In this document: positions 209 through 62,443 of the stretch, piece after piece
How the letters are laid out: every line of letters starts with the position of its first letter
Numbering within the stretch: position 1 is the first letter of the stretch
Virus record (IMG/VR): IMGVR_UViG_3300029996_000158
Reading direction: 5' to 3' (one strand)
DNA from: a virus
DNA length: 64,000 bases
Notes under the pieces: model-generated
Databases searched by the model: none
What the model was told of the DNA's origin: nothing
What the model saw: the letters and a program-made list of their open reading frames with translations, nothing else
Translations under genes and position numbers: made by a program

Positions 209-2419
209 ATGGCAACTAAGAAAAAAGTTGGTATAAAAGTTCCAACAAAAAATGAGATATTAAAAAAGTATGGGGGCATGATAATACAGGCTTCTGATAC
301 AAAAGAACCAGGATTATGGTTACCATCAACTTTCCTTAATCTTAATTATACATTAGGTGGGGGTTTTCCTTGGGGGAAAGTAACTGAGATAGCTGGTGAG
401 GAGTCCTCGGGAAAAACTCTAATAGCATTAAATGCAGCTTATGCTTGTCAACAATTAGGGGGTTCAGTAATATGGGTAGATGCTGAACAATCATGGATGA
501 ATTCTTGGGCAGAATTAAATGGTATAAATCCAAATAAGGTAACTGTAATAAGGGATACTAGAATAGAATATATATCTGATGCTGTAGCAGATGTAGCTAT
601 ATATTTAAGGTCTCAATTAACACATAATGAACCAATATTATTGGTAGTTGATTCAGTTGCTGCAATTGATTGTTCTGATAATATAGATTCCAAAATGGTA
701 GATGGTAAAGCTGAGATGGGTGGAAGAGCAAAGGCTTTATATAAATATTTTAGAATCAGGAGTGAGTTATTTTATAAACTTGGGGTTACCCAAATATATA
801 TAAATCAGTTAAGGACTGCTTTAAATGTTGGTTTTGGTAAAGATAATACCTGTTTACATTATAATACCATGATACCATTTGTTGATGGTACTTCTATGAG
901 AATAGGGGATATTATTAAAAATAAGGTATCTAAAGAAGTTTGGAGTTATAATGAAAGTACTGGAAAATTTGAACCAAAACCAATAGTTGATTGGGTAGTA
1001 AAATCAGAAACTAAAAAATGGATTCAATTTAAAACTGAAGGACCAGAAACTGTTAATGGTTTTAATGGTTTTACTTGTACTTATACCCACCATTGTTTAA
1101 CCAATCATGGTTGGAAAAAAGCAATAGACATTGATATAAATGATAAATTAATATCCAAACAGAGGAGGGTTATAAATGGTACTTTAAAAGATTTTCTTTG
1201 GGGAACTATACCATTTGATTGTTCTCTATATAGTAATCATGGTAATCATACTACTAGACTTACATTTAGTAATGGGAAACAAGAAGATTATCTTATGTTT
1301 AAAACTGAAATGATAAGTAAAGCTTTCCCCATGAAAATGAAAGGTAATAATCCTTATAAATGGATTACTAAAGTTGGTTATACTGAATTACAAGAAATAT
1401 ATGATAAGATAGGTAAAGATAGAGACCCATTAAAATTATGGGATTTATCAAAACCCTTGTCACCAATTACCTTATCCATATGGTACATGGATGATGGTCA
1501 TAAATATAATAATTCTACAGTTGGTATATCCATATCCCCAAGAAGAACAGATATCAATAAGTTATCAAAATATCTATCTGATATATGTGGTTTGGATAAT
1601 AAAATATATGAACATGGTATAAAGTTTACCAATGATGGTTCAAAAAAATTAATGGAACAAATCCAGGAATATGTTATAGAGTCTATGCAATATAAAATGT
1701 TACCCGGATATACTGGTAAATATAAACCTTATTATTTAGAGTTTAAAGAAGAGTATATACCAATAGAAGTTGGTATTATATCCATAAATAAGGAGTTTAA
1801 TATTAAAAATAGAAGGTTTAAAAGAAGCTATAAGAGAAAAAAATATGATATTACTATACCAGATAATCATAATTTTCTAGCTGGTTCAAAAGAACAGGGT
1901 ATAGTAGTACATAATACCACTACTGGTGGTGCTGCATTAAAATTCTATGCTTCAATAAGGGTAGCTTTTTATTCAGGTAAAACCATAACAGTAAAAAATA
2001 AAGGTAAAGAAAGAAAAGCTGGTAAATTAGTAACAATTAGGGTTTTAAAGAATAAGGTTGCTCCCCCAAGACCCACTATTTCCAAAGCCCCAGTATTTTT
2101 CAATCCAAAATTTCATGAAGTTGGTTTTGATAGATGTTTTGGGTTAGAAGATGTTTTTGTAGAAAATGATATAATAGAAAAATCTTCTGGTGGGGTTTAT
2201 AAGTATAAAGGAAAAGTATTATGTAGGGGGGAAGAAAAATTCCAAAAGCTAATAGAGGAAGATGATGAGTTAAGAAGAAAACTTCTTAAGAAAGCTGGAA
2301 TAAATACTATTGGTTCAACCAGAAAACAATTGGAGAATTTAAAAGAGAATTATTACCCAGTGGATGATTCCTTAGAATATGAATCTTATGGCGAAGAAGA
2401 TGAAGAGAGTGAAGAGTAG
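209..2419 (+). CDS. recA: RecA-family recombinase interrupted by an in-frame intein
   Basis: Walker A GEESSGKT, VVDSVAA, INQLR..FGKDNT and (after the insert) TTGGAALKFYASIRV follow the RecA core order. A 355-aa insert separates the last two motifs. Confidence 0.9.
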   Translation: MATKKKVGIKVPTKNEILKKYGGMIIQASDTKEPGLWLPSTFLNLNYTLGGGFPWGKVTEIAGEESSGKTLIALNAAYACQQLGGSVIWVDAEQSWMNSWAELNGINPNKVTVIRDTRIEYISDAVADVAIYLRSQLTHNEPILLVVDSVAAIDCSDNIDSKMVDGKAEMGGRAKALYKYFRIRSELFYKLGVTQIYINQLRTALNVGFGKDNTCLHYNTMIPFVDGTSMRIGDIIKNKVSKEVWSYNESTGKFEPKPIVDWVVKSETKKWIQFKTEGPETVNGFNGFTCTYTHHCLTNHGWKKAIDIDINDKLISKQRRVINGTLKDFLWGTIPFDCSLYSNHGNHTTRLTFSNGKQEDYLMFKTEMISKAFPMKMKGNNPYKWITKVGYTELQEIYDKIGKDRDPLKLWDLSKPLSPITLSIWYMDDGHKYNNSTVGISISPRRTDINKLSKYLSDICGLDNKIYEHGIKFTNDGSKKLMEQIQEYVIESMQYKMLPGYTGKYKPYYLEFKEEYIPIEVGIISINKEFNIKNRRFKRSYKRKKYDITIPDNHNFLAGSKEQGIVVHNTTTGGAALKFYASIRVAFYSGKTITVKNKGKERKAGKLVTIRVLKNKVAPPRPTISKAPVFFNPKFHEVGFDRCFGLEDVFVENDIIEKSSGGVYKYKGKVLCRGEEKFQKLIEEDDELRRKLLKKAGINTIGSTRKQLENLKENYYPVDDSLEYESYGEEDEESEE
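851..1915 (+). mobile_element. intein with LAGLIDADG-type homing endonuclease domain inside recA
   Basis: First residue is Cys (TGT 851-853; CLHYNT). Also present: a TYTHH block-B-like motif, endonuclease motif LSIWYMDDGH, and C-terminal blocks YDITIPDNHNFLAG and GIVVHN followed by +1 Thr (ACC 1916). Excision restores FGKDNT|TTGGAALKF. Confidence 0.85.
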
Positions 2420-8863: not shown

Positions 8864-8880
8864 AATTTTTATATTATAAA

Positions 8881-8914
8881 TTTGCATATTATTATTATAT
8901 GTATTATATTTGCA
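8881..8914 (+). promoter_or_regulatory. Bacteroidota-type promoter (-33 TTTGCAT / -7 TAtaTTTGcat)
   Basis: TTTGCAT at 8881 and 8908 (27 nt apart), 44 nt upstream of the ATG at 8958. Confidence 0.6.
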
Positions 8915-8957
8915 TATCAAAATTAAAAAATAAAAACTAATTAAAAAACATTAAACC

Positions 8958-12370: not shown

Positions 12371-12382
12371 TTTATCAGGATT

Positions 12383-12628
12383 ATGGATAATAAATTAGAT
12401 GACCAAGAAATTTTATACTTTGCAATCTGTAATCAAATAGGATTATATAATTCTTTTCTAGAAGATAATAAAAATAACCTCTCAAAGGAAGATATTGAAT
12501 TTTCAGAATATATAATTGCAAGGTCAATGGAGATAAGGGATAATATGGAAAAGGGTTTATTAAACAAATTTGATTTAGATGAAGATAAACCAATAAGTAG
12601 ACCAAAATGGACAGAAGAAAGTATGTAA
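12383..12628 (+). CDS. hypothetical protein
   Basis: Co-oriented ORF after a terminator. Confidence 0.5.
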   Translation: MDNKLDDQEILYFAICNQIGLYNSFLEDNKNNLSKEDIEFSEYIIARSMEIRDNMEKGLLNKFDLDEDKPISRPKWTEESM

Positions 12629-12978
12629 TGTCAGTAAGGAATTTAATTCTTAGCATAATTGACCAATCAAAAGAATTAGAATCATTGGAATTGGAGTTAT
12701 CTAAAACTAATAATCTTGGTAAAAGAAATTCTTTGATAAAATCAAAGGTATTTAAATTAAAGAAATTAAAGCATACTATGAATACCATTGATAAGGTTAT
12801 TAATGGGAATATTATAACAATCCAGTATTCAATTGATGAACAAGTATTCCAAAGGAAGTTTGTAAATATATCAAAAAGAGATGTAATATTATTGTTGAGA
12901 TTAACCAATTCAAACCATAGAGTTAAAATCCTAGAAATCCAGGAGGAATTTACCGAAGAAAGTTTAATAAAACTATAA
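12628..12978 (+). CDS. hypothetical protein
   Basis: TAATG stop/start overlap at 12626-12630. The ORF track's alternative start is 12607. Confidence 0.5.
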   Translation: MSVRNLILSIIDQSKELESLELELSKTNNLGKRNSLIKSKVFKLKKLKHTMNTIDKVINGNIITIQYSIDEQVFQRKFVNISKRDVILLLRLTNSNHRVKILEIQEEFTEESLIKL

Positions 12979-13731: not shown

Positions 13732-13753
13732 ATTGACTAACCCAGAATTTTTA

Positions 13754-13788
13754 TTTGCATAATTAAATATTAAATTTTATATTTGCAT
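13754..13788 (+). promoter_or_regulatory. Bacteroidota-type promoter (-33 TTTGCAT / -7 TAtaTTTGcat)
   Basis: TTTGCAT at 13754 and 13782 (28 nt apart). Confidence 0.65.
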
Positions 13789-13815
13789 ATTAAAATAAAA
13801 AAGGAAACAACTACT

Positions 13816-14963: not shown

Positions 14964-15042
14964 TTATTATATAAAATATTTGCATAATAAAATAAAGCAT
15001 TATATATTTGCATTAAATAATAATTAAATAAAAAGGATATGG
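14964..15042 (+). promoter_or_regulatory. 79-nt promoter-leader cassette, copy 1
   Basis: Identical to 20006-20084 and 78/79 identical to 18429-18507. Holds TTTGCAT at 14979 and 15007 and runs into the ATG at 15039. Confidence 0.7.
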
Positions 15043-15266: not shown

Positions 15267-15314
15267 ACCCCAAGAATTTTAATTAAAAAATTTTTCTATA
15301 TTAAAAAATTGAAT

Positions 15315-15322
15315 TATATTTG
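15315..15322 (+). promoter_or_regulatory. -7 box TAtaTTTG (weak -33)
   Basis: TATATTTG lies 52 nt upstream of the ATG at 15374; only TTTTTC is found at the -33 position. Confidence 0.4.
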
Positions 15323-15373
15323 TATCGAAAAAATTAATTATCTATTATTTATAAACAACTAAAACTTAAAGTC

Positions 15374-18428: not shown

Positions 18429-18507
18429 TTATTATATTAAATATTTGCATAATAAAATAAAGCATTATATATTTGCATTAAATAATAATTAAATAAAAAG
18501 GATATGG
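18429..18507 (+). promoter_or_regulatory. 79-nt promoter-leader cassette, copy 2
   Basis: TTTGCAT at 18444 and 18472. Differs from copies 1 and 3 at one base. Shares extra upstream CCCCTATT with copy 3. Confidence 0.7.
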
Positions 18508-20005: not shown

Positions 20006-20084
20006 TTATTATATAAAATATTTGCATAATAAAATAAAGCATTATATATTTGCATTAAATAATAATTAAATAAAAAGGATATGG
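20006..20084 (+). promoter_or_regulatory. 79-nt promoter-leader cassette, copy 3
   Basis: Identical to copy 1; TTTGCAT at 20021 and 20049; runs into the ATG at 20081. Confidence 0.7.
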
Positions 20085-22654: not shown

Positions 22655-22761
22655 ATAGGATTAAATACTATCAGGTACCCAGAACAAAATAAAGAACCAA
22701 ATCCCAAGACCTAAGAATAAGAACCAACCCCAAACAAAAAATTAATAAAAATAAATAATAT

Positions 22762-22830
22762 AAAGGAACCTAATATAAATACCTCTATATAATAAACTTA
22801 TAAATATAAGGTATCTAAGGTTCCTTTTTT
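22762..22830 (+). terminator. long hairpin terminator closing the early gene array
   Basis: AAAGGAACC (22762-22770) pairs with GGTTCCTTT (22819-22827), with inner ATACCT/AGGTAT pairing, followed by a T run. Confidence 0.6.
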
Positions 22831-23049
22831 GTTTCAGGATTATTAAATCCCAGTATAAAAATAGACCTTCCCAAAAAATTGAAAAAACCTATTTCTAAGC
22901 TCAAAACTAATATCAAAATAGCTCACTTTTGAGCCCAAAGCCGGGATGTTTTTCGGTAGCTCTAGGAAGTTCCAAGGAGTACTGTTCCCACCTACCCAAA
23001 GGCTACCTTGTGGCCCTTATTTTAGGGCCCAAAAGGCTGCCCAGAGGTA

Positions 23050-23101
23050 CCTAAAAAGCCCTAAAACCCCTACCTAAAATTGCCTAAAAGGCAACCTAAA
23101 A
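23050..23101 (+). repeat. five CCTAAAA iteron-like repeats at 10-13 nt spacing
   Basis: CCTAAAA at 23050, 23060, 23073, 23083 and 23095. Confidence 0.85.
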
Positions 23102-23226
23102 TCCAAATCTAGGTACCTAAGAATCCTTATCTAGGACCTTCAAGGATTAAAGCCCAAATGACGACATACCTCTATATATCATACAAAACATATACTATTC
23201 AAAATCCCAAGAAATAAATTGCCTAA

Positions 23227-23244
23227 ATCCGAATCCGAATCCGA
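23227..23244 (+). repeat. (ATCCGA)x3 tandem repeat
   Basis: ATCCGAATCCGAATCCGA. Inverted TTCGGAT-like copies occur at about 23451 and 23541. Confidence 0.85.
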
Positions 23245-23303
23245 ACCTTAACCCAATACTCCCTCTAATATAATATATATATTATATAATAAAGTACTTA
23301 GGA

Positions 23304-23317
23304 TTCAAGGCCTTGAA
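23304..23317. repeat. perfect 14-bp palindrome TTCAAGGCCTTGAA
   Basis: Read directly from the sequence; it is the symmetry centre of the surrounding motif field. Confidence 0.95.
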
Positions 23318-23846
23318 ATTATTTAGGATTCTGAAAGAATACTGATATACTATAGTATTGAGTACTATCATGCTTTAAATTAAAATCCTAATCCTACTAG
23401 GCCTTAAATTTACTTTATATTATTATATAATATATATATATAATATAAGGGTTCGGATTTATTAATTTAGGCAATTCTGGGTACCCAGAATTATTAGGTT
23501 TAGGTACCTATATTTAGGGATTTTGGGTTCTGGTTTATAATCGGATTTTGTTTTCAGGTACCTAGAATAGGTAATTTATTTTAGGATTTAGGGCCCAAAA
23601 GTATCTGGGATTTTTAAAATTTCCCATCAACAATGTGCAAAAGATTTAAGGCCCTTTGGGTTATTTTCAATAAACATCTTAGTAAGTTATTAGTATAAAG
23701 TTAAGAGTTAATATTAAAACTAATAAATAAGTTCTAGAAGGTATATTAAAATTAATGATAAGTAGACCATATAGTGGAGATATGAGATATCAAGTATATT
23801 TTAGAGGATTAAAAATTAAGGCTTAATTCAAGGCCCCGAATTTTTA

Positions 23847-23881
23847 TTTGCATATTATTATATTATATATTATATTTGCAT
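23847..23881 (+). promoter_or_regulatory. Bacteroidota-type promoter (-33 TTTGCAT / -7 TAtaTTTGcat)
   Basis: TTTGCAT at 23847 and 23875 (28 nt apart), upstream of the ATG at 23932. Confidence 0.65.
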
Positions 23882-23931
23882 TGCAATTAAATGCAATAAT
23901 ATTATTTAACAACACTTAAACATTAAACACA

Positions 23932-24791: not shown

Positions 24792-24984
24792 GTGAATCAG
24801 AAAATTCCTACCAACAAAGGCCCAAACCGAAAAGAGCCTTTACCTTATGACAATTATTGTAATCCTGATTTTAAGAATCACCCAATAAATTACTTCCTAC
24901 GCCCTATAACACATCCTGACCCAATATTCAGGAACTCAATCCTACACTTACCCACTGGGAGCAAAATTATTATATAATATATGA

Positions 24985-25013
24985 TTGGAATAAAAATATA
25001 ATTATTATATTTG
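24985..25013 (+). promoter_or_regulatory. Bacteroidota-type promoter (-33 TTG / -7 TAtaTTTG)
   Basis: TTG at 24985-24987, an 18-nt spacer, then TATATTTG at 25006-25013, 33 nt before the ATG at 25046. Confidence 0.55.
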
Positions 25014-25045
25014 CATTGTATTATTAACAACTAAAATTTATTTTT

Positions 25046-26316: not shown

Positions 26317-26676
26317 ATGGAAACAAAAAATTTTATCGACGAATTATTAACAAGTGACGTATTTGTTAAAAATTCAAATGGAAAAAAATCCTCAATTTAT
26401 AAGAGGGAATTATTTGCGGGATTGTTGGACGACGACAAAAAAAAATTACGTAGAAAGTTACGTAAAACTTTACAAAACAAATTTTTAGCCACATTTTTAA
26501 CAATTCGTAAAAATGAAACTGAATTGAAAAAATTGTCAAAAATTTGGGTTGAATACGCAAACAAAGTATATAATAATATAGATATTGTTTGCGAATCAAA
26601 TACAGATATTGAAACGCAAAAACTAATTAAGCAATTTTTGGAATCAATGAAAAATTGTGCTGCAAAAACAAAATAA
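26317..26676 (+). CDS. hypothetical basic protein
   Basis: ORF downstream of the promoter and repeat field; contains KKKLRRKLRKTLQNK. Confidence 0.55.
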   Translation: METKNFIDELLTSDVFVKNSNGKKSSIYKRELFAGLLDDDKKKLRRKLRKTLQNKFLATFLTIRKNETELKKLSKIWVEYANKVYNNIDIVCESNTDIETQKLIKQFLESMKNCAAKTK

Positions 26677-27049: not shown

Positions 27050-27116
27050 TGATTTATAATAAGGAAAGGTTATTTATCGAAATGGAATAATATTTTTTAG
27101 TTAATTAAGTTAATAA

Positions 27117-27145
27117 GGGGGACAAAATTTGTCCCCTATTTTTTT
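27117..27145 (+). terminator. rho-independent terminator
   Basis: GGGGAC / GTCCCC stem followed by TATTTTTTT. Confidence 0.8.
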
Positions 27146-27439
27146 ACATTATTTTGTTAAATATTGGACACCCTACCCCCCTCTAAATGCCACTACCCAA
27201 ACAGCCTATAGTAATGGGCCCACTGGGGGATTGAACTACTGAACAACTAAGGTAACGAACAACTAAAAGAACTTTAAGAACAAGGAGAATAAGGAACCCC
27301 AAAAAAATCTGAACACCCCCTATCCCATTTCATAAACCAAAACCCAAATTATCCCTCAAGCCCAATTTCAAAAAAAAATCCAATCCCATATATAGTAATG
27401 GGTTCCCAAAAATCCTTATAAATCCAAACCTTATTTCAA

Positions 27440-27492
27440 TTAAAAAGGGCTACCTCTAAGAAAATATAAATATATCTTCAAAGAGATAACCC
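27440..27492 (-). terminator. rho-independent terminator of the reverse-strand cassette
   Basis: On the minus strand GGGTTATCTCT pairs with AGAGGTAGCCC (the two mismatches become G-U pairs only on this strand), followed by TTTTTAA. Confidence 0.65.
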
Positions 27493-27511
27493 TAAAATAA
27501 AAACTAAAACT

Positions 27512-27748
27512 CTAGAAAAGAATATAAAGAATAAATCCTATGCCATATAAAATAACCATAACTGAATTCCATAAATCCTTATTGAATACTTTATTCAAAT
27601 GGTCAAATACAATTGAGATTAGGTTTAATATTAAAACCAGGGAAAGGATTACTACCAATATAATGGATTTCTCATCACCAGCAAAATATTGCATTAGGAA
27701 AAACCCAAAAGAAAATCCAAAGAATAGATTTATAATATCTCTTGTCAT
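27512..27748 (-). CDS. small multi-pass membrane protein
   Basis: 78 aa with three hydrophobic segments; ATGA overlap with the upstream gene. Confidence 0.6.
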   Translation of the reverse strand: MTRDIINLFFGFSFGFFLMQYFAGDEKSIILVVILSLVLILNLISIVFDHLNKVFNKDLWNSVMVILYGIGFILYILF

Positions 27749-28044
27749 CCTACTACCTTTATATCAAATAAACCTTCAATTTCCTCTATGGTAATTCCAA
27801 GGGATTCCAATTCCAATCTAAGGATATCAAATTCCTCATCTGTAGTTTCAGATATACTGGTTTCCGATAAATGCCTGAATGTAATATAATTATTAAAGGA
27901 TAGGATATTCCTATTATTATCTACACTTAATAGGACCTTGAAATTAATTGCCATATCAGATGATATAGAATTTATAATTCCAATAAATTTACTAAATTTA
28001 GCTGTACCTTTGATGGTAACTAAGGTTCCTTTTTCTAATTCCAT
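27745..28044 (-). CDS. hypothetical protein
   Basis: 99 aa with an acidic C-terminal half; member of the reverse-strand operon. Confidence 0.6.
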   Translation of the reverse strand: MELEKGTLVTIKGTAKFSKFIGIINSISSDMAINFKVLLSVDNNRNILSFNNYITFRHLSETSISETTDEEFDILRLELESLGITIEEIEGLFDIKVVG

Positions 28045-28047
28045 AAT

Positions 28048-28245
28048 TTATAAACTTTTTTTAAAAAATCCACTATCAATTAATTCAACTATAATAATTA
28101 CTATCAATGATGCTGGACTAAGGACTACAAGGAATAAACCCCATAATAAATCCCTAATAGTACATTTATCATTCCATTTTAATTTAATTAGAATAGCTGA
28201 AACTATTATTACACTAAGTATGCAGTATATTATAACCAAGGTCAT
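28048..28245 (-). CDS. small membrane protein
   Basis: 65 aa with two hydrophobic segments. Confidence 0.55.
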   Translation of the reverse strand: MTLVIIYCILSVIIVSAILIKLKWNDKCTIRDLLWGLFLVVLSPASLIVIIIVELIDSGFFKKSL

Positions 28246-28248
28246 TGC

Positions 28249-29019
28249 TTATTCCTCCCATTCTATCTTTTGTATTCTAATAACATTAGCTGTGGTTTCT
28301 CTTGCAATTTTCTCGGCAGTTTCTTTATCATATATAGCTTCTTTATGAATAATTATCCATCCCTCTTTCTCCTGGGGGAGCATCATTAAGTCATGGTTAT
28401 GACATTTTCCTGATTCATATAACCCATCTTTGGTATAGCTGTATACAGACTCGCTATAAGTGCCTTCATTTACCAAGGCCACAATAGAAAAGTCTTGCCC
28501 GTCATAAAGATACTTTCTGTCAAAGCAAATAATCCTTGCCTTTCTTCCATCTCTCGTGCAGACTGGTTTGCCTGCTTTGGCTGCTTCAAGGTTAAATTCT
28601 TTTAAGTTTAATTTCTTTTCTTTCATATCTTCTTTGTTTTGTTTAATCTCTACAAATATCTCATCTTTTAGGCATGAATATGCAGGTTGATGGTTTATAT
28701 AGTAACTCAATTTGCAGTTTCTTGAAAAATTATCATAAAAAGCACAATTATTACAAAGAGAATCAGGGACCTTTATTTTCTGATATGATTTATTCTCTAC
28801 CATAATTGGATTCCCAACCTTTTCAAGTTTCCTAAAAACTACGGATTTATAATCTTTCCTATAAGGTGGTAAACAATTTCCTATTATATTAAGTACATTA
28901 TTACAACAAATATTATTATGAGTATTGAAATGGCATATAATACACCCATACCCAGTATTCTCAATACATTGGTACCAATTATCCTGATAATTAAATATTT
29001 CACCTATTTTTCGTTCCAT
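28249..29019 (-). CDS. Cys-rich protein with unrecognised C-terminal domain
   Basis: The N-terminal half carries about 13 Cys in clusters (CIICHF..ICCNN..GNC; CNNCAF..NC). C-terminal part reads AKAGKPVCTRDGRKARIICFD... Confidence 0.65.
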   Translation of the reverse strand: MERKIGEIFNYQDNWYQCIENTGYGCIICHFNTHNNICCNNVLNIIGNCLPPYRKDYKSVVFRKLEKVGNPIMVENKSYQKIKVPDSLCNNCAFYDNFSRNCKLSYYINHQPAYSCLKDEIFVEIKQNKEDMKEKKLNLKEFNLEAAKAGKPVCTRDGRKARIICFDRKYLYDGQDFSIVALVNEGTYSESVYSYTKDGLYESGKCHNHDLMMLPQEKEGWIIIHKEAIYDKETAEKIARETTANVIRIQKIEWEE

Positions 29020-29339
29020 AATTCCAATTGTTTCCTTTCTCTTTTTTCCTGTAATTCATATACATTTTCATATAAGTCTCTAATCTTCTTAAAGGTAATT
29101 TTAATTTTTCTAGAACCTTCTAGTTTTACACTTACCCTTTCCATATAACCTCTAGTTTCAAAATTACTTCTATATCCCAAAACTGTTGTATGTGAATAAC
29201 CAAGGTCATTTATTAAATCCATAAAATCAAATTTTTCACCTACTGGTATTTGATTAAATCTTTTCCTAAGGATATCAAATTTACTCATAATATTAATTGT
29301 TTTATATTGAATATGTCTACTATATCTCAATTTGGTCAT
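29004..29339 (-). CDS. hypothetical protein, possible winged-helix DNA-binding
   Basis: FMDLINDLGYSHTTVLGYRSNFETRGYMERV resembles an HTH. The true start may be ATG 29288, because 29339 abuts the T run of an upstream terminator. Confidence 0.5.
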   Translation of the reverse strand: MTKLRYSRHIQYKTINIMSKFDILRKRFNQIPVGEKFDFMDLINDLGYSHTTVLGYRSNFETRGYMERVSVKLEGSRKIKITFKKIRDLYENVYELQEKRERKQLELWNEK

Positions 29340-29370
29340 AAAAAAATTCCTCTACTTGGAATAGAGGAAT
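29340..29370 (-). terminator. rho-independent terminator (minus strand)
   Basis: ATTCCTCTA / TAGAGGAAT 9-bp stem followed by T7 when read on the minus strand. Confidence 0.7.
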
Positions 29371-29405
29371 TGAATAGTAAAAGAAGGAAGAACCAAATAC
29401 TTCTT

Positions 29406-29882
29406 TTATCTTAAAATTTCAATATTAATACATTCTAATCCCCAAGATTCTTCCATACTGGGGTCAAAATTACCAGTTGTAGAGATTTGTAAGCCACCAA
29501 ACATAAATTTTTTACCAGTAGAACTTTGGGAAGTAGAAGTAAGGTATACAGTAGTAAAATTTCTTTGTAAATCATTAGCATTACTGGGGTCAAAATCAAT
29601 ACCGTGTAAATCAACATATTTATTGTCACTTACCATAATATTACAATATCTTTCTGAAGTAACAATATTCTGAATAACAGAACATGCAAATAGACGTATC
29701 AATGGTGTATTATCACTTCTAGTAACATATATATCAAATGCAATATCACTTGGAGTTAGAGATTTGGCTGACCCACTATTGAATACATTGGTCAAATAAA
29801 ATCCCATTTCTGGGGTAAGGCTATCAAGTTTTACTTCAAACCCATCTAACTCTTCTTTGGGTATAATTGGAATTATTAACAT
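29406..29882 (-). CDS. hypothetical protein
   Basis: 158-aa ORF forming its own unit between two minus-strand terminators. Confidence 0.65.
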   Translation of the reverse strand: MLIIPIIPKEELDGFEVKLDSLTPEMGFYLTNVFNSGSAKSLTPSDIAFDIYVTRSDNTPLIRLFACSVIQNIVTSERYCNIMVSDNKYVDLHGIDFDPSNANDLQRNFTTVYLTSTSQSSTGKKFMFGGLQISTTGNFDPSMEESWGLECINIEILR

Positions 29883-29936
29883 ATTATTTTCTTTTTTTTT
29901 GGGTTATTATTTGGTTCTTCATATCAGAATAGTATA

Positions 29937-29978
29937 TAAAAAAAAATACCACCCAGATTTTCGCAAACCCAGATGGTA
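29937..29978 (-). terminator. rho-independent terminator (minus strand)
   Basis: On the minus strand TACCATCTGGGTTT-GCGA-AAATCTGGGTGGTA gives a 14-bp stem (including G-U pairs) with a GNRA tetraloop, followed by a run of at least nine T. Confidence 0.75.
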
Positions 29979-30022
29979 GGAACAGTGAAACAATAGACAT
30001 TCAGGAATGAGTAATACTATGG

Positions 30023-30226
30023 TTATTTTTTAAAAAGTGTTATTACTGTATATAATAGTAAACTAAGAATTAATATTGGGGATATCATAAATACAGTAGT
30101 CATTATAAAAAAGTGTCTTAAGTTATTCTTTACACCTTTTACACCTGATTTTCTAACAGTATAATCTATTGCTACTGTTAATATTAACCCAATAAAGTAT
30201 ATCAGAATTAGAATCTTTATTCCCAT
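30023..30226 (-). CDS. small membrane protein
   Basis: 67 aa with two hydrophobic segments. Confidence 0.55.
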   Translation of the reverse strand: MGIKILILIYFIGLILTVAIDYTVRKSGVKGVKNNLRHFFIMTTVFMISPILILSLLLYTVITLFKK

Positions 30227-30227
30227 A

Positions 30228-30437
30228 TTATACTGTTGCTAGAAATATTAAAAATAATGCCCCAATAACCAAAGCCATAATTACACAAGGTAAGAAAAAA
30301 GTTCTGAAATTTGAGAATTCTTCGTCCATTCCTTTAAATACAAGCCAAAAATTCCCAAAATTCCTAGTACTTTCACTTATTGCTTTGGCATATCGTATTC
30401 TAATTATATACCTTATCATTCCACCTAAACCATTCAT
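30228..30437 (-). CDS. small membrane protein (C-terminal anchor)
   Basis: 69 aa with a C-terminal hydrophobic segment, FLPCVIMALVIGALFLIFLATV. Confidence 0.55.
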   Translation of the reverse strand: MNGLGGMIRYIIRIRYAKAISESTRNFGNFWLVFKGMDEEFSNFRTFFLPCVIMALVIGALFLIFLATV

Positions 30438-30754
30438 AGATATTTTTCCTCCACCTTTTTAAGTTTATTGTATAATTTAATTACTGATTCATTTGGTAAT
30501 TTCCCCAATCCTTCATTAATTTTACTTAAGATTCTTGGTATTCTTTCCATAGATAACAAATAATTGTATTTATCTTCATCAAAAAGTTCAACCTTAAACT
30601 TAGAAGTAACAATACTGATAATATTAAGGTTATTATCTATGGTCATACCATTACTAAGTTTGTATTTATTACCTTTCAATACTGATTCTACTAAAGCTTT
30701 TTCATAATGAGCTTGTCCAGTTACTAATAAAGCATCTTTTTCTTTAAGTTTCAT
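30434..30754 (-). CDS. hypothetical protein
   Basis: First gene of the reverse-strand cassette; ATGA overlap with the next gene. Confidence 0.6.
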   Translation of the reverse strand: MKLKEKDALLVTGQAHYEKALVESVLKGNKYKLSNGMTIDNNLNIISIVTSKFKVELFDEDKYNYLLSMERIPRILSKINEGLGKLPNESVIKLYNKLKKVEEKYL

Positions 30755-30801
30755 AATTTTGCATTATATAATTAAATTCAATAAGAAGTAGTATTTCGCA
30801 A

Positions 30802-30809
30802 TACCTTTG
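30802..30809 (+). promoter_or_regulatory. -7 box TAccTTTG upstream of the methyltransferase gene
   Basis: TACCTTTG lies 37 nt upstream of the ATG at 30846; no clear -33 element. Confidence 0.4.
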
Positions 30810-30845
30810 TTGTATAATATATAACCTCTAAAACTTATAAAAATC

Positions 30846-31856
30846 ATGGGTAAATTAAGAGTACTTGGAGTATGTGGAGCTCAAGGAGCTTTATTATTCC
30901 CATTTAAAAAGTATTTAATTGGTAATATTGAACCAAGAGCAGTATTTCATACAAAAAATGAAGAACAATGGAAATTAAATTTTGGTGAAATACCTTTCAA
31001 AAGAGACCCTGAATCATTTAAAGGCCAAGTAGATATTATAATTGGTTCCCCTTCTTGTGGTCATTCTAGTGTTTTTAGTTATTCAAGGAAGAAAACCCTT
31101 GGTAAACCAAAAGAAGATAAAACTTTGAATCTATTTTTAACCTCTTTGAGCATGTTTAAACCCAAAATATTCTTAATGGAAAACCTTCCAAAACTTTTTG
31201 ATTTAATTCCAAGAGAAGAATGGGAAGCAAAATTGCAAAATTATCACTTAATTGTTCATTGCCATTCAGTATTTGACTTTGGTAATTCACAAAAATCACG
31301 AAAAAGACTGATTTTAATTGGTATAATGAAGGATTCTGACATAAAAATATCCAATTTTGAGGATATTTTTCCAGTATCAACCCCAATTTTAGTATCAGAA
31401 ATTGAAAAATTAGTGAGAAAGGACTTAAATTTCAGAGAAAATGATGATAAAAAGCTAGCTATGTATCATCATTCTGATAAATCCAAGAAAACTTTAACAG
31501 TAAAAGAAGTAAAAAACTTATGGTTAGGTGAATTTAAGAAGGAATATAAATGGCCAATGAAAAATACCAAAATGAAAACATTACCAGGAGTGTATAGGAA
31601 TAGAAAAAACAGTTATCCATTAACTGTAAGACCATCAAATAGGCAATTTAATCCCAATGGTGATATTATGGGGTTAGAGGAATATCGGATTATTATGGGA
31701 TTCCCAAAAAGGTTCAAGGTATATATGGATATGAATAATTTAAATTATTGGCTCAATAAAGGAAGAAATACATTAACAAAAGGCTCAGTTTATGAGGTTG
31801 GAATATGGTTTAAAAAATGCCTAAAAAAACAATTCAGGAATATGGAAACCCCCTAA
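30846..31856 (+). CDS. DNA (cytosine-5) methyltransferase-like, divergent motifs
   Basis: Motif I-like LGVCGAQGA, motif IV-like GSPSCGHS (in place of GGPPCQ), motif VI FLMENLP, motif VIII QKSRKRLILIG, and C-terminal EYRIIMGFP. Confidence 0.7.
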   Translation: MGKLRVLGVCGAQGALLFPFKKYLIGNIEPRAVFHTKNEEQWKLNFGEIPFKRDPESFKGQVDIIIGSPSCGHSSVFSYSRKKTLGKPKEDKTLNLFLTSLSMFKPKIFLMENLPKLFDLIPREEWEAKLQNYHLIVHCHSVFDFGNSQKSRKRLILIGIMKDSDIKISNFEDIFPVSTPILVSEIEKLVRKDLNFRENDDKKLAMYHHSDKSKKTLTVKEVKNLWLGEFKKEYKWPMKNTKMKTLPGVYRNRKNSYPLTVRPSNRQFNPNGDIMGLEEYRIIMGFPKRFKVYMDMNNLNYWLNKGRNTLTKGSVYEVGIWFKKCLKKQFRNMETP

Positions 31857-31962: not shown

Positions 31963-32085
31963 GTGCGTAATATATTTATACCCTCTAAAAGGGTAAATAA
32001 ATATATTTTACTCTTTTTAGAGGAGGGAATAAATCAAAAAGAATAAGGGGAACTATTGGTAATAAATCCGAAAAATTTTTATGTT

Positions 32086-32751
32086 ATGAAAATCCTATGG
32101 TCAATTCTTAAAATCCTAATCCCAATTGTTTTATGTTTGTTGATTGGTTATTACTTTGGTTCATTGAAACATAAATCTGGTTCACAACCAATAAACCAAA
32201 AACCAGATACGGTTTATATTGATAAGCCTTTTGTTCCAGAGGAACCATTTGATGAACCAAAAGAACCTGAAGTTATTTATGTTCATACTTTGGACACAAT
32301 AGAAATTCTAAATATCATTTACCATAATGATACAATAAAACTATTATACCCTGATTCAAGTTTTATTTCAGTATCATCTCAGTTTCTTTCTCAATTCCCA
32401 AATTCAAGTAAGCTAATCCAATTTCTTCTAACTGATACTGATTTAAAACTTGTATTATTAAACACAGATGGAAAGCTCTTTGAAAAGGTTTGTTCAATTG
32501 ATACTGATAATTACTCATACAATTATCTTGGGGATAATATGACTCAAAAAAGAAAATCATTCATCAAAAGATTTTCACCATTAACTGAACTTCAATGGAG
32601 ACCATTCAACAATTTATGGGATTTGAATTTAGGTTTAAAATACAATACCAGTAAATTTAATTATGAACTTGGGTTAAATCTATTTTATTACCCAAGGATT
32701 AAAACAAATCCTGGAACAGATTTATACTTCAAATTAAGTTATCAATTCTAA
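32086..32751 (+). CDS. secreted or membrane protein with beta-barrel-like C-terminus
   Basis: ATG 32086 gives MKILWSILKILIPIVLCLLIGYYFG (signal or anchor). The C-terminus DLYFKLSYQF has alternating hydrophobic residues ending in Phe. The track start at 32056 is a TTG. Confidence 0.55.
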   Translation: MKILWSILKILIPIVLCLLIGYYFGSLKHKSGSQPINQKPDTVYIDKPFVPEEPFDEPKEPEVIYVHTLDTIEILNIIYHNDTIKLLYPDSSFISVSSQFLSQFPNSSKLIQFLLTDTDLKLVLLNTDGKLFEKVCSIDTDNYSYNYLGDNMTQKRKSFIKRFSPLTELQWRPFNNLWDLNLGLKYNTSKFNYELGLNLFYYPRIKTNPGTDLYFKLSYQF

Positions 32752-60310: not shown

Positions 60311-60943
60311 ATGTTATCAATCCTACTTCAAACTGAAAACCTTAACAATTTAACTGAATCAGTTAATAAAGTTACTGATTCCTCTATTAGAATTGCCCAA
60401 GCTGCAAATGACTTTGGTGCATTAAGAGTAGCTTTTGGTGTATTTATGATTTTTATAATCATAATTGTAATATTGTTTATATGGCAAATATTTGTATTAT
60501 CTGGCAAATTGAATACCATATATGGAGCAGCTATTAAAACCACTGAATACTTTGAAACCTCTGCAGAAGGAGATATTGGACCTTCACAAGCCCAAGTAAT
60601 AGTAAGAAGAAATTTTAATAGCTTAAGTCAAGCAATTAAATATTACATTCTTAGAATAAGGCTAGAAAACCATATAGACGATAAAAATAAAATAAAAGTA
60701 AAAATAGATATGTTAGTTAGAAATGAATTTTCAGAACTAACCACATATCTATCAAACTTTAAGTGTAATAAAAAGGTTTTAAGTTTTATAGTAGAAGATG
60801 ATGATATTCAAATGGTTGAAGATTTTATTTTTGAACAGGTATATATACCAAAAAATGATTTTACCATATCCAATATGGACCAATCAACCTCTATATTTAT
60901 AAATGGTCTAAAGCTTTCATATATTAAGAAAATACCACAATGA
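60311..60943 (+). CDS. single-pass membrane protein (holin or lysis-accessory candidate)
   Basis: Hydrophobic segment AFGVFMIFIIIIVILFIWQIFVL; ATGA overlap with the amidase gene. Confidence 0.4.
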   Translation: MLSILLQTENLNNLTESVNKVTDSSIRIAQAANDFGALRVAFGVFMIFIIIIVILFIWQIFVLSGKLNTIYGAAIKTTEYFETSAEGDIGPSQAQVIVRRNFNSLSQAIKYYILRIRLENHIDDKNKIKVKIDMLVRNEFSELTTYLSNFKCNKKVLSFIVEDDDIQMVEDFIFEQVYIPKNDFTISNMDQSTSIFINGLKLSYIKKIPQ

Positions 60944-61536
60944 GAAAATTGATAGTTATATTAGACCCAGCACATGGGTCAGATGTAAAAGGTAAACGTT
61001 CACCAGATGGTACCCATTTAGAATATATATGGAGTAGAGAAATATGCAAAAAACTAAAAGATAGGCTTATCCTAAATGATTTTAGGGTTAAATATACAAA
61101 TGAAACAGAAAATGAAATAGGCTTATCAAAGAGAAAAGAAATTGCAAATAATATAAAATCAAGTCCTGGTGAATATAAATTTCTAGTAAGTTTGCATAAT
61201 AATGCTGCTGGGGATGGTACCCAATGGTTAAATGCAAAAGGGTTTGAAATTTATACTTCAAAGGGGCAAACCATTTCTGATAAATTTGCAACCATTATTT
61301 TTAATAATTTAAAAAAGGATTTTCCCGGTATAAATGCAAGAGCAGATTATATTGATGGTGACCCAGATAAGGAAAGTAATTTCACAGTATTAATGGGAAA
61401 CTATTATGCTGTTCTAATAGAATGGTTATTCCAGGATAATAAAGAAGAAGTAATACTTCTAAAAGATAAAACCATTAATTCCAGGTTAGTGGATTCTTTG
61501 GTAAATTCACTGATAGAAATAGATGAACAATTATAA
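60940..61536 (+). CDS. N-acetylmuramoyl-L-alanine amidase (endolysin)
   Basis: VILDPAHGSDVKGKRSPDG and SLHNNAAG are Amidase_3-type motifs. Confidence 0.75.
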   Translation: MRKLIVILDPAHGSDVKGKRSPDGTHLEYIWSREICKKLKDRLILNDFRVKYTNETENEIGLSKRKEIANNIKSSPGEYKFLVSLHNNAAGDGTQWLNAKGFEIYTSKGQTISDKFATIIFNNLKKDFPGINARADYIDGDPDKESNFTVLMGNYYAVLIEWLFQDNKEEVILLKDKTINSRLVDSLVNSLIEIDEQL

Positions 61537-61570: not shown

Positions 61571-61605
61571 GAGGGTAATTTGGGTGACCAAGTTGCCCTC
61601 TTTTA
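61571..61605 (+). terminator. strong hairpin terminator between convergent genes
   Basis: GAGGGTAATTTGG-GTGA-CCAAGTTGCCCTC forms a 13-bp stem with a tetraloop, followed by TTTTA. Confidence 0.8.
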
Positions 61606-62277: not shown

Positions 62278-62302
62278 AACTTAATAGATTAATTATTTAA
62301 CA

Positions 62303-62313
62303 ATGCAAATATA
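62303..62313 (-). promoter_or_regulatory. -7 box TAtaTTTGcat on the minus strand upstream of the sigma-like gene
   Basis: The reverse complement of 62303-62313 reads TATATTTGCAT, about 26 nt upstream of the start at 62277. Confidence 0.5.
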
Positions 62314-62443
62314 TATAATAATTTTATCACTTGTATGAAAATATATCAACTTTTTCACCCTATGTGTTGATTTTTATAAAATTGAAATATAAATGAATCT
62401 AGAAAAGACTACTCATAGATACAACTTTCATATATGTAAAGAC

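What the first reader, a model, noticed from the sequence alone, without database searches (positions are those of the whole stretch)
27440..30754. Reverse-strand nine-gene cassette rich in tiny membrane proteins: candidate exclusion, anti-defence or host-modulation island
Apart from the sigma-like gene at 61603-62277 (-), this is the only reverse-oriented coding in the window. It sits between the early region and the virion module. Minus-strand intrinsic terminators that I could fold by hand split it into three units: 30754-30023 (3 genes, terminator 29937-29978 with a GNRA loop and T run), 29882-29406 (1 gene, terminator 29340-29370), and 29339-27512 (5 genes, terminator 27440-27492). Five of the nine products are 65-78 aa proteins that are mostly hydrophobic helices. 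One is a 256-aa protein with clustered Cys motifs. One is a possible winged-helix protein. I recognised none as a virion, replication or classical lysis protein, and the amidase lies 30 kb away. Opposite orientation plus membrane peptides plus a putative regulator is typical of superinfection-exclusion, abortive-infection or anti-defence loci, but no component matches a family I can name.
Basis: partly seen in the sequence, partly recalled or inferred. Interest (0 to 1): 0.65.

Follow-up and report, generated by a model that had tools for sequence, protein, structure and literature searches.

The report
Variable leftward accessory operon, gut phage
The nine backward-facing genes are real: three conserved head genes followed by a recombining set of accessory genes in a gut Bacteroidota phage, so this is an ordinary kind of phage "plastic region" whose parts have no known function, and its most interesting part is a protein with a swappable hypervariable patch.

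Summary
There are nine tightly packed minus-strand ORFs and three strong intrinsic terminators at the stated places. One correction: four, not five, of the products are small membrane proteins.

Comparison with about 80 related gut-phage contigs shows that the leftward operon is a constant feature of the family.
- The head is conserved in about 70 of the 82 related loci; a homologue of g1 heads the operon in the other 11. It consists of g1 (an SH3-like barrel plus a helical hairpin), g2 (a tail-anchored 1-TM protein) and g3 (a 2-TM protein).
- The region upstream of the methyltransferase varies from 2.0 to 5.6 kb. g4-g9 occur only in the window's own subclade.
- That distal block has several-fold lower synonymous divergence than the backbone, which points to recent exchange.
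- g6 belongs to a very large gut-phage family. It carries a roughly 45-residue segment that exists as at least 9 discrete alleles between near-invariant flanks. This is not a DGR.
- g6 followed by g7 recurs in unrelated phage contexts.

No product matches any lysis, virion, replication or known defence family. The amidase has its own membrane partner 30 kb away.

Verdict: an accessory, recombining region. A role in phage-host conflict or at the cell envelope is plausible but unproven.

The parts
30755..30845 (.). Divergent intergenic region between g1 and the cytosine methyltransferase. A degenerate -7-like box (TTATATAATGCAAAATT, 30755-30771 on the minus strand) lies directly before the g1 ATG. 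A GGTATTGCGAA element (30795-30805 on the minus strand) stays with the methyltransferase.
   Evidence: An equivalent box (TATAATATGCAAAT / TATATTGCAT) sits before g1 homologues in relatives, and distant relatives have the canonical TATATTTGCAT. GGTMTTGC lies at a fixed 31-47 nt from the MTase ATG, even when an HNH gene is inserted between g1 and the MTase.
30434..30754 (-). g1: a 106-aa soluble protein and first gene of the operon. SH3/Tudor-like five-strand barrel (residues 8-57) plus a helical hairpin (residues 60-105). Homologues are present in 81 of the 82 related loci compared.
   Evidence: hhalign 97.5% between the two subfamilies; pLDDT 86.6; dN/dS 0.05-0.09.
30228..30437 (-). g2: a 69-aa protein with a cytoplasmic N-terminal part of about 42 aa and a C-terminal transmembrane anchor. 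It is the most diverged gene within the subclade (54% aa identity).
30023..30226 (-). g3: a 67-aa two-TM hairpin protein with a basic (+5) connecting loop. Conserved across the family.
   Evidence: (hhalign 96.1%).
29937..29978 (-). T1: intrinsic terminator with a 14-bp stem, a GCGA tetraloop and a U9 run. Present only in the window's subclade, where the stem is kept through sequence changes.
   Evidence: (z -4.5).
29406..29882 (-). g4: a 158-aa acidic soluble ORFan that sits alone between two terminators (moron-like). It is specific to the subclade.
   Evidence: dN/dS 0.4-0.7, dS about 0.1.
29345..29371 (-). T2: intrinsic terminator with a 12-bp stem. Its U run abuts the first ATG of g5.
   Evidence: z -4.3.
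29004..29339 (-). g5: a 111-aa basic protein (probably 94 aa from the ATG at 29288). Possible HTH or winged-helix protein. It is 98-100% conserved in the subclade and overlaps g6 by 16 nt.
   Evidence: sigma region-4-like, E 0.013; a g5-g6 fusion variant, P0179.
28249..29019 (-). g6: a 256-aa modular protein. Cys-rich N-terminal half (13 Cys), a central beta-rich domain (residues about 140-215) and a conserved C-terminal tail. It belongs to a very large gut-phage family (precomputed Pfam label PF26890).
   Evidence: 5179 homologues; 2681 representative clusters.
28390..28524 (-). Hypervariable segment of g6 (residues 166-210). At least 9 discrete alleles with indels lie between flanks that are 93-98% identical.
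   Evidence: No template repeat or reverse transcriptase was found.
28048..28245 (-). g7: a 65-aa two-TM protein. Homologues lie directly after g6 homologues in 7 loci of a different phage context.
27745..28044 (-). g8: a 99-aa acidic soluble ORFan, specific to the subclade.
   Evidence: (not a paralogue of g1).
27512..27748 (-). g9: a 78-aa membrane protein with two to three hydrophobic helices, specific to the subclade. dN/dS 0.05-0.27.
27442..27493 (-). T3: a long interrupted hairpin (12 + 8 bp) plus a U run, which ends the operon.
   Evidence: -25.7 kcal/mol, z -6.1.

Best explanation
This is the leftward accessory operon of a Flanders-like gut myovirus that most likely infects Bacteroidota.

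Shown.
- The operon starts back to back with the methyltransferase/packaging operon.
- It opens with a conserved three-gene head: g1, a cytoplasmic SH3-like barrel plus helical hairpin; g2, a tail-anchored 1-TM protein; and g3, a 2-TM hairpin protein.
- It continues into exchangeable cargo. In this lineage the cargo is g4 (a single gene between two terminators) and g5-g9 (a putative small DNA-binding protein, the modular g6, the membrane protein g7, the acidic g8 and the membrane protein g9).
- The cargo differs between relatives. It has a different evolutionary age from the backbone, and part of it (g6, and g6 followed by g7) is shared with unrelated gut phages.
- g6 carries an internal segment of about 45 residues that is replaced wholesale between otherwise identical alleles.

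Inferred.
- Transcription starts at a weak, degenerate Bacteroidota-type -7 box just upstream of g1. The three terminators step it down, so the head is made in larger amounts than g4, and g4 in larger amounts than g5-g9.
- The head proteins form a complex at the inner membrane that the whole phage family needs.
- The cargo acts in phage-host or phage-phage conflict. The small membrane proteins would alter the envelope (superinfection-exclusion type). g6 would use its swappable beta-hairpin surface to bind a partner that varies between host strains, as a counter-defence or host-takeover function.

The cassette is not a lysis, virion or replication module.
For: Architecture and conservation.
- 80 related loci were fetched through the adjacent methyltransferase.
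- The distance from the conserved upstream gene to the MTase varies from 1973 to 5564 bp.
- The gene-cluster maps show head families in about 70 loci and dozens of alternative distal genes, including HNH endonucleases and ORFans.
- Subfamilies are linked by hhalign: g1 97.5%, g3 96.1%, g2 89.8%.
- g1 dN/dS is 0.05-0.09.

Mosaic history.
- Within a subclade that is 95-97% identical in MTase and TerL, amino-acid identity is 98-100% for g5 but 54% for g2 and 64-88% for g6.
- dS is 0.26-0.30 for the backbone, 0.02-0.1 for g4, g5 and g7-g9, and 0.5-0.9 for g1 and g2.

g6.
- 5179 homologues and 2681 clusters at 50% identity.
- Residues 166-210 are 32% identical against 93-98% in the flanks, and fall into 9 allele classes with indels.
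- This segment lies in the only confidently modelled domain, pLDDT 81-90.
- g6 homologues sit among YopX-like, DUF4406-like and methylase genes in other phages, my reading of the neighbour sequences rather than a family search. A g7 homologue directly follows g6 in 7 such loci.

Not lysis, defence or core.
- No Pfam, PHROG, PADLOC or NCBIfam match.
- The amidase has its own 1-TM partner at 60311-61536.

Transcription.
- The terminators fold strongly. T1 keeps its stem through sequence changes in relatives.
- A -7-like box is conserved before g1, and it is canonical in distant relatives.

Host.
- TAnnTTTG-type promoters and leaders without Shine-Dalgarno sequences.
- The architecture matches the 'Flandersviridae' description (PMC8008677).
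Against:
- No canonical promoter exists in the cassette. The best PWM score is -8.9 bits, against 26-50 bits for the nine real sites. The start point and timing of transcription are therefore guesses.
- The strong conservation of the head fits an essential core function as well as it fits a conflict function.
- Small membrane ORFans are common in phage genomes and are not specific to exclusion.
- Low dS in g5 and g7-g9 could partly reflect constraint on the nucleotide sequence rather than recent transfer.
- The g6 model is poor outside residues 140-215, and structure searches gave no informative match.
Confidence: 0.55

Rival explanations
1. The conserved head (g1-g3) is part of the lysis machinery. 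g3 would be a small holin or pinholin, g2 an antiholin or membrane regulator, and g1 a cytoplasmic timer. On this reading the cassette is core, not accessory.
For: - The two small membrane proteins are conserved across the family and lie next to each other.
- In distant relatives (L072-L082) a muramidase (PF11860, E 5e-63) and a 2-TM protein lie between the leftward operon and the MTase. Lysis genes can therefore occupy this neighbourhood.
Against: - In the window the Amidase_3 endolysin is 30 kb away and is translationally coupled to its own 210-aa single-TM protein, which resembles a T4 holin T in layout.
- There is no PHROG or Pfam holin or spanin match.
- The basic loop of g3 predicts an N-out/C-out topology and the C-terminal tail is only a few residues long, unlike class II holins (simple hydropathy only).
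- The muramidase in distant relatives is on the opposite strand, in the MTase operon.
Confidence: 0.13
2. The cassette is mainly regulatory. g1 (SH3/Tudor-like fold) and g5 (HTH-like) would be DNA- or RNA-binding regulators that control the divergent methyltransferase/late promoter and the operon itself. The membrane proteins would be passengers.
For: - g1 is always the first gene next to a conserved divergent promoter region.
- Its fold class (KOW, Tudor, PWWP) often binds nucleic acids.
- g5 has a weak match to sigma region 4 and is 98-100% conserved.
Against: - The structure matches are all non-significant in the PDB (best E 0.03). In BFVD the matches are to uncharacterised proteins only.
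- The conserved GGTMTTGC element travels with the MTase, not with g1, when an HNH gene separates them.
- This reading gives no reason for g2 and g3 to be co-conserved with g1.
Confidence: 0.15
3. The distal genes are selectively near-neutral selfish or hitch-hiking ORFans, spread by recombination and homing endonucleases, with no phenotype of their own.
For: - HNH homing endonucleases occur in this region in relatives.
- Several cargo genes in relatives share the N-terminal peptide 'MLxFHSQNV', which suggests recombination joints.
- g4 and g7 have relaxed dN/dS of 0.4-1.1.
Against: - g5, g9 and g6 outside its variable segment are under clear purifying selection.
- The g6 family is maintained in thousands of phage lineages.
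- The ORFs stay intact in all relatives.
Confidence: 0.12
4. The hypervariable patch of g6 is the target of a diversity-generating retroelement, as in some gut Bacteroides phages.
For: The hypervariability is confined to one segment of an otherwise invariant protein. DGR targets in non-structural genes of gut phages are on record (PMC8008677).
Against: - There is no template repeat anywhere in the 64-kb window, and no reverse-transcriptase ORF by a YxDD-motif scan; the only YxDD hit is in the UvsX-like gene, which carries a LAGLIDADG insert.
- The alleles differ by indels and at most positions, not only at adenine-templated sites.
- None of the ten large ORFs scanned in the part of relative MT121964.1 that the window lacks is a reverse transcriptase.
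Confidence: 0.03

Closest known systems
Hyperplastic regions of T4-like phages and the 'plastic periphery' of phage genomes (my own knowledge: Comeau et al. 2007)
   Same: A fixed genomic position bounded by conserved genes. It holds many small ORFans, often membrane proteins, that differ between close relatives and are exchanged by recombination.
   Different: Here the region is a single antisense operon with a conserved three-gene head. The phage is a 77-kb Flanders-like Bacteroidota myovirus, not a T4-like phage.
Morons of lambdoid phages (my own knowledge: Juhala et al. 2000, Hendrix)
   Same: g4 is a single gene bracketed by intrinsic terminators and is present only in one sublineage.
   Different: No promoter of its own could be recognised. 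The composition is not atypical (GC 0.31 against about 0.29). The phage shows no sign of lysogeny, so prophage-state expression is unlikely.
T4 Imm and Sp superinfection-exclusion proteins (my own knowledge)
   Same: Small inner-membrane proteins encoded outside the lysis module. g3 and g7 are two-TM proteins of 65-67 aa, in the Imm size range as I recall it.
   Different: No sequence or profile similarity to any named family. No phenotype is known.
DGR-diversified target proteins of gut Bacteroides phages ('Quimbyviridae', PMC8008677)
   Same: A non-structural phage protein with one sharply delimited hypervariable patch.
   Different: No RT or template repeat was found, and the alleles differ by indels. 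The variation is segmental allele replacement, not mutagenic retrohoming.
'Flandersviridae' candidate family (PMC8008677)
   Same: The gene order matches: structural block, then DnaB/PolA replication module (with LicD in a relative), then about 20 kb of unknown ORFs. The tail is contractile, no lysogeny genes were seen among the genes scanned, and the host signals point to Bacteroidota.
   Different: Membership was not tested by TerL or PolA phylogeny. The close relatives here are about 77 kb against the 85-kb median reported. The section of the paper read here (section 18) does not describe this leftward operon.

Membership tests
Holin / endolysin / spanin lysis cassette | Membrane proteins encoded next to, and co-oriented with, the endolysin | tested here: not met
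   Amidase_3 lies at 60940-61536 (+), overlapping the end of a 210-aa 1-TM protein. The cassette is 30 kb away on the other strand.
Holin / endolysin / spanin lysis cassette | Profile similarity to a known holin or spanin family | tested here: not met
   No Pfam, PHROG or NCBIfam match at E <= 0.1-1.
Holin / endolysin / spanin lysis cassette | Holin-type topology with a charged cytoplasmic C-terminal tail; spanin lipobox or type II signal anchor | tested here: inconclusive
   Hydropathy and positive-inside analysis only. g3 has a +5 loop and a tail of a few residues, and no lipobox was seen in any product. No dedicated topology predictor was available.
Known anti-phage defence systems (PADLOC-DB v2) | HMM match to a component of a described system | tested here: not met
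   0 families for all nine proteins at E <= 0.1.
Moron | Own terminator downstream of the gene | tested here: met
   T2 lies after g4 and T1 before it.
Moron | Own promoter | tested here: inconclusive
   There is no canonical Bacteroidota-type promoter. The best PWM score on the cassette sense strand is -8.9 bits, against 26-50 for real sites. Weak or phage-specific promoters cannot be excluded.
Moron | Present in some close relatives and absent in others | tested here: met
   g4-g9 were found only in the subclade with 95-96% MTase identity, in 8 of 80 loci.
DGR target gene | Template repeat and reverse transcriptase in the same genome | tested here: not met
   No second copy of 28300-28620 in the window and no RT-like ORF. 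No RT among the large ORFs of the relative's extra region. About 13 kb of this genome was not seen.
DGR target gene | Variation restricted to adenine-templated positions, without indels | tested here: not met
   Nine allele classes of different lengths that differ at most positions.
T4 Imm/Sp-type superinfection exclusion | Small inner-membrane protein(s) encoded outside the lysis module | tested here: met
   g2, g3, g7 and g9.
T4 Imm/Sp-type superinfection exclusion | Homology to Imm or Sp, or a demonstrated block of DNA entry | tested here: not met
   No PHROG or Pfam similarity to any named family. The phenotype cannot be tested with these tools.
acr-aca type anti-defence operon | HTH regulator gene adjacent to small variable inhibitor genes, with homology to known Acr or Aca families | not tested
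   g5 has only a weak HTH-like signal. No Acr/Aca profile library was available.
Hyperplastic / accessory region of a phage genome | Conserved flanks with variable gene content between relatives | tested here: met
   the interval is 1973-5564 bp and holds more than 100 gene clusters across 82 loci.
Hyperplastic / accessory region of a phage genome | Evidence of recombination (mosaic divergence) | tested here: met
   dS ranges from 0 to 0.9 across adjacent genes, against 0.26-0.30 in the backbone. g6 shows segmental alleles.
'Flandersviridae' | Collinear architecture and Bacteroidota host | tested here: met
   compared with the description in PMC8008677.
'Flandersviridae' | Monophyly in TerL and PolA trees | not tested
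   No reference sequences of the proposed family were at hand.

The most novel reading that the evidence does not exclude
g6, possibly working with the membrane protein g7, would be a new kind of phage recognition protein. Its specificity would be changed not by a DGR but by wholesale swapping of a beta-hairpin segment of about 45 residues between conserved recombination anchors (KAGKPVCTRDGRKARI... and ...DLMMLPxKKEGW). The segments would be drawn from a pool of thousands of homologues in gut phages. It would act as a counter-defence or exclusion specificity factor matched to host-strain variation. The conserved g1-g3 head would be a previously unrecognised membrane complex common to Flanders-like phages.
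Probability: 0.2. Interest if true: 0.65.

Novelty: new member of a known kind. Interest (0 to 1): 0.4.

Why it matters
Flanders-like phages are among the most common viruses of the human gut, and most of their genes have no assigned function. This work splits one of their unknown regions into two parts: a three-gene head conserved across the family and an exchangeable cargo. It also singles out two concrete targets for experiment.
- The g1-g3 head. Is it essential, and what does it do at the membrane?
- The g6 family. It comprises thousands of gut-phage homologues and has a swappable hypervariable segment.

If g6 alleles track host strains or defence repertoires, the family would be a useful marker of phage-Bacteroides arms races. 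It would also be an example of protein hypervariation without a DGR. If not, the region is simply another plastic region of ORFans.

Tried and rejected
- g8 as a paralogue of g1 (similar N-terminal KGxLVT motif): rejected, hhalign probability 1.5%.
- GGTATTGCGAA as a g1 operator or 5'-UTR hairpin: rejected. The motif is unique in the window. It keeps a fixed distance to the MTase ATG and stays with the MTase when an HNH gene is inserted.
- DGR origin of the g6 variable patch: rejected.
- Structure-based function for g1: the model is good, but the PDB gave no hit at E <= 0.001 and BFVD gave only uncharacterised phage proteins.
- Structure of g6: only close homologues could be used for the alignment. 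Mean pLDDT was 50, and the Foldseek output is not meaningful.
- PDB sequence searches for g1 (as a profile), g4, g5 and g6: nothing significant.
- Rfam scan of 21-33 kb: nothing credible.
- Folding of the 27140-27440 spacer on either strand: no better than shuffles.
- Host from genome bins: the TerL scan hit only MAG contigs labelled Clostridia or Bacillota. I judged these to be binning artefacts, given the Bacteroidota-type promoters and the lack of Shine-Dalgarno sequences.
- Literature searches for PF26890 and for the nearest GenBank record name: no papers.
- g5 and g8 against the genes that neighbour g6 in other phages (112-, 125- and 98-aa proteins): no relationship.

Full report
WHAT IS THERE

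The window is a phage genome segment with 29% GC, coded almost entirely on the plus strand. Between a block of unknown plus-strand genes (to 27049) and a cytosine methyltransferase (30846-31856, followed by TerL, portal, protease and major head protein) lie nine minus-strand ORFs at exactly the reported coordinates. Their junctions run from a 16-nt overlap to a 3-nt gap. The exceptions are two intergenic gaps of 140 and 66 nt, which hold the reported hairpins.

All three hairpins fold far better than shuffled controls and are followed by U runs: -16.6, -12.7 and -25.7 kcal/mol, with z scores of -4.5, -4.3 and -6.1. The consensus scan found 7 terminator-like sites in 5.5 kb against 2.2 +/- 1.4 expected.

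Hydropathy shows four small membrane proteins, not five: g2 has one C-terminal TM, g3 and g7 have two each, and g9 has two to three. g6 has 13 Cys. Strand-composition skews agree with minus-strand coding for the soluble genes. They also argue that another long minus-strand ORF at 12381-12908 is spurious.

NO KNOWN FAMILY

None of the nine products reaches significance in Pfam, PHROGs, PADLOC or NCBIfam or in PDB sequence searches. The only hints are weak:
- g5 against a sigma-factor region-4 PHROG, E 0.013.
- g7 against a 'membrane protein / moron' PHROG, E 0.008.
- g6 against an unknown-function PHROG, E 5e-5.

The classical lysis pair is elsewhere. Amidase_3 lies at 60940-61536 and overlaps the stop of a 210-aa single-TM protein at 60311-60943.

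HOST AND PHAGE TYPE

Six exact copies of the bipartite motif ATTTGCAT-N16-TAnnTTTGCAT occur only on the plus strand between 8.8 and 24 kb, where 0 are expected by chance. Three more one-box or degenerate copies exist, one of them in front of the minus-strand gene at 61603-62277. This is the -33/-7 promoter type of Bacteroidota (TTTG / TAnnTTTG; established knowledge).

Only 11 of 91 genes have a Shine-Dalgarno-like 4-mer, and the leaders are A-rich, which is also typical of Bacteroidota. MAG labels pointing to Clostridia are therefore probably binning artefacts.

The gene order matches the published description of the candidate family 'Flandersviridae' of Bacteroides/Parabacteroides phages, which lack recognisable lysogeny genes (PMC8008677). 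That order is: structural block with sheath and baseplate, then DnaB; in the nearest GenBank relative MT121964.1, helicase, thymidylate synthase, LicD and PolA with an intein; then UvsX, SbcCD and about 20 kb of unknown ORFs. I did not test membership by phylogeny.

COMPARATIVE ANATOMY

Using the adjacent methyltransferase as an anchor, I fetched 80 related IMG/VR loci with 51-96% MTase identity. Every one has a leftward gene array at this position. The distance from the conserved upstream gene (the homologue of 26317-26676) to the MTase varies from 1973 to 5564 bp.

Clustering of 717 ORFs from this interval gave 124 clusters. The maps show a constant head and a variable tail.
- A g1-type soluble protein is present in 70 loci. 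A diverged subfamily occupies a further 11 loci (hhalign probability 97.5%).
- It is followed by a 1-TM protein of about 67 aa (three clusters linked at 89.8% and 44.7% probability).
- Next comes a 2-TM protein of 65-86 aa (clusters linked at 96.1% and 43.8%).
- After that the content differs from lineage to lineage: many ORFan families and HNH_3 homing endonucleases.

g4-g9 are found only in the eight loci closest to the window. The terminator after g3 also exists only in this subclade, where its stem is preserved through sequence changes. In the other relatives the g3-type gene overlaps the next gene by 4-26 nt. The 'three transcription units' are therefore a recent feature of this lineage, and g4, bracketed by two terminators, looks like a moron-type insertion.

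MOSAIC HISTORY

Against the eight close relatives (TerL 97% and MTase 95-96% amino-acid identity), identities are as follows:
- g5: 98-100%
- g8: 96-100%
- g9: 97-99%
- g7: 90-97%
- g1: 92-93%
- g4: 89-92%
- g3: 84%
- g6: 64-88%
- g2: 54%

Synonymous divergence is 0.26-0.30 for TerL and MTase. It is only 0-0.1 for g4, g5 and g7-g9, and 0.5 and 0.9 for g1 and g2. Adjacent genes thus have different ages. The distal block has been shared recently among these phages, and the g1/g2 alleles are older than the backbone split.

dN/dS is below 1 for most genes (g1 0.05-0.09, g9 0.05-0.27, g2 and g3 about 0.35, g4 0.4-0.7). The small ORFs therefore encode real proteins.

g1

An AlphaFold2 model built on 54 diverse homologues is confident: pLDDT 86.6, with a five-strand SH3/Tudor-like barrel followed by a helical hairpin.

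Foldseek against the PDB found nothing at E <= 0.001. The best, non-significant matches are KOW-type ribosomal proteins, PWWP, Agenet and KapB. Against BFVD the fold recurs in uncharacterised proteins of unrelated phages of Escherichia, Pseudomonas, Arthrobacter and Nodularia (7 hits at E <= 0.001). It is thus a recurrent phage fold with no assigned function.

g6

This is not an ORFan. It has 5179 homologues in the 90%-clustered database, all with the precomputed Pfam label PF26890, which is absent from the Pfam copy I could search. Exhaustive HMMER found 2681 clusters at 50% identity, many of them full-length at 40-55% identity. A few relatives carry extra RyR, dGTP-diphosphohydrolase-N, DUF551 or TYW3 domains.

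Among 120 close homologues, residues 1-165 and 211-256 are 89-98% identical to the window on average, but residues 166-210 are only 32% identical. That segment falls into 9 discrete classes of different length. It lies inside the only confidently modelled part of the protein, a small beta domain at residues 140-215 with pLDDT 81-90.

No template repeat or reverse transcriptase is present, and the alleles differ by indels. This is segmental allele replacement, not DGR mutagenesis. The near-universal flanking motifs (KAGKPVCTRDGRKARI and DLMMLPxKKEGW) are obvious candidates for recombination anchors; this is inference.

A scan of IMG/VR with a family alignment returned 80 loci, 75 of which lack every other cassette gene. 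There the g6 homologue is co-oriented with neighbours that look, from their sequences, like YopX-like, DUF4406-like, DUF4065-like and methylase genes; I did not run these through a family search. In seven such loci a g7 homologue (52-83% identity) starts 3-6 nt after g6. g6, sometimes with g7, is therefore a mobile accessory module of gut phages.

TRANSCRIPTION

A position weight matrix built from the nine canonical promoters scores them at 26-50 bits. The next best site in the window scores 9.4, and the best on the cassette's sense strand scores -8.9. The cassette does not belong to that strong promoter class.

Directly upstream of the g1 ATG is a degenerate -7-like box, TATATAATGCAAAA. Its counterparts in relatives are TATAATATGCAAAT or TATATTGCAT, and the most distant relatives have the canonical TATATTTGCAT. 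I infer a weak host-type promoter, or one that needs an activator, with the terminators acting as attenuators. The timing is unresolved. Public read data could not be used.

INTERPRETATION

Shown:
- The region is a leftward operon fixed across the phage family, with a conserved head and recombining, lineage-specific cargo.
- None of it is lysis, virion, replication or a catalogued defence system.
- One cargo protein carries a swappable hypervariable segment.

Inferred:
- Graded expression through the terminators.
- A membrane-associated g1-g3 complex.
- A conflict or envelope role (superinfection exclusion, counter-defence or host takeover) for the cargo.

I put about 0.85 on the structural statement and about 0.35-0.4 on the conflict function. 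This is why the combined confidence is 0.55. The rivals are lysis regulation by the head (0.13), a mainly regulatory role for g1 and g5 (0.15), near-neutral selfish cargo (0.12) and a DGR (0.03).

NOVELTY

As a kind of feature this is a phage plastic or accessory region with moron-like additions, which is well known. Its gene families are uncharacterised. The head trio and the g6 allele-swapping pattern do not appear in the one paper on these phages that I consulted (PMC8008677), but no new mechanism is demonstrated. I rate it a new member of a known kind and of moderate interest.

Noticed in passing
window 8876-8917, 13749-13790, 14974-15015, 15286-15327, 18439-18480, 20016-20057, 23842-23883, 24977-25018 (+) and 62301-62342 (-): Nine very strong Bacteroidota-type promoters (ATTTGCAT-N16-TAnnTTTGCAT; three are identical over 42 nt). 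They are confined to the unknown 'early' block and to the minus-strand gene at 61603-62277. None lies in the virion module or in the cassette. The PWM gap is wide: 26-50 bits against a next best of 9.4.
   Followed up: partly
window 22655-23931: A 1.28-kb stretch with no ORF of 45 aa or more. It contains scattered short repeats and palindromes built around GGTACC and TTTAGGGCCCAAAAG, and has negative GC skew. It could be a replication origin or another non-coding element. There was no Rfam hit.
   Followed up: partly
window 32056-32751 (+): A protein of 221-231 aa just upstream of TerL, with an N-terminal TM or signal anchor and a beta-rich C-terminal part ending in ...YFKLSYQF, which resembles an outer-membrane beta-barrel signature. 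It is conserved in 74 of the related loci and has no PHROG hit.
   Followed up: no
window 60311-60943 (+): A 210-aa protein with a single TM near the N-terminus. Its stop overlaps the start of the Amidase_3 gene. It is a likely holin with a layout like T4 holin T, and its only match is an unknown-function PHROG (E 6e-6).
   Followed up: partly
It does have a canonical host-type -7 box upstream (62303-62314).
   Followed up: partly
window 209-2419 (+): A UvsX-like recombinase interrupted by a LAGLIDADG homing-endonuclease domain, which looks like an intein. In relative MT121964.1 the PolA gene likewise carries an intein with HNH and NUMOD domains (L168:18169-21447).
   Followed up: no
L020, L021, L026-L031, L039, L054, L057, L068 (cargo genes upstream of the MTase): Unrelated cargo proteins on both strands begin with the same peptide, MLxFHSQNV(P/L). 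This suggests a conserved recombination joint at gene starts in the variable region of related phages.
   Followed up: no
L014-L016, L026, L028, L030, L057, L060, L063, L065: An HNH_3 homing-endonuclease gene is inserted between the g1 homologue and the methyltransferase. The MTase promoter element (GGTCTTGC...) stays with the MTase.
   Followed up: partly
L072-L082 (distant relatives): A plus-strand N-acetylmuramidase (PF11860, E 5e-63) with an adjacent membrane protein (a 147-aa 2-TM protein in most of these loci) sits between the leftward operon and the methyltransferase. The endolysin type and position therefore differ within the wider family.
   Followed up: partly
window 27050-27511: A 460-nt non-coding spacer between the convergent plus-strand terminator (27117-27137) and T3. 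It is G/T-rich on the minus strand and contains a repeated CCCATTACTATA motif. It is conserved at about 87% in close relatives, which carry an extra insertion of about 200 bp here. Its RNA folding is no better than shuffles.
   Followed up: partly
protein P0179 (metagenomic variant of g5-g6): One variant encodes g5 (from MSKFDIL) and g6 fused into a single 338-aa ORF. This supports the internal start of g5 and a close functional link between g5 and g6.
   Followed up: no
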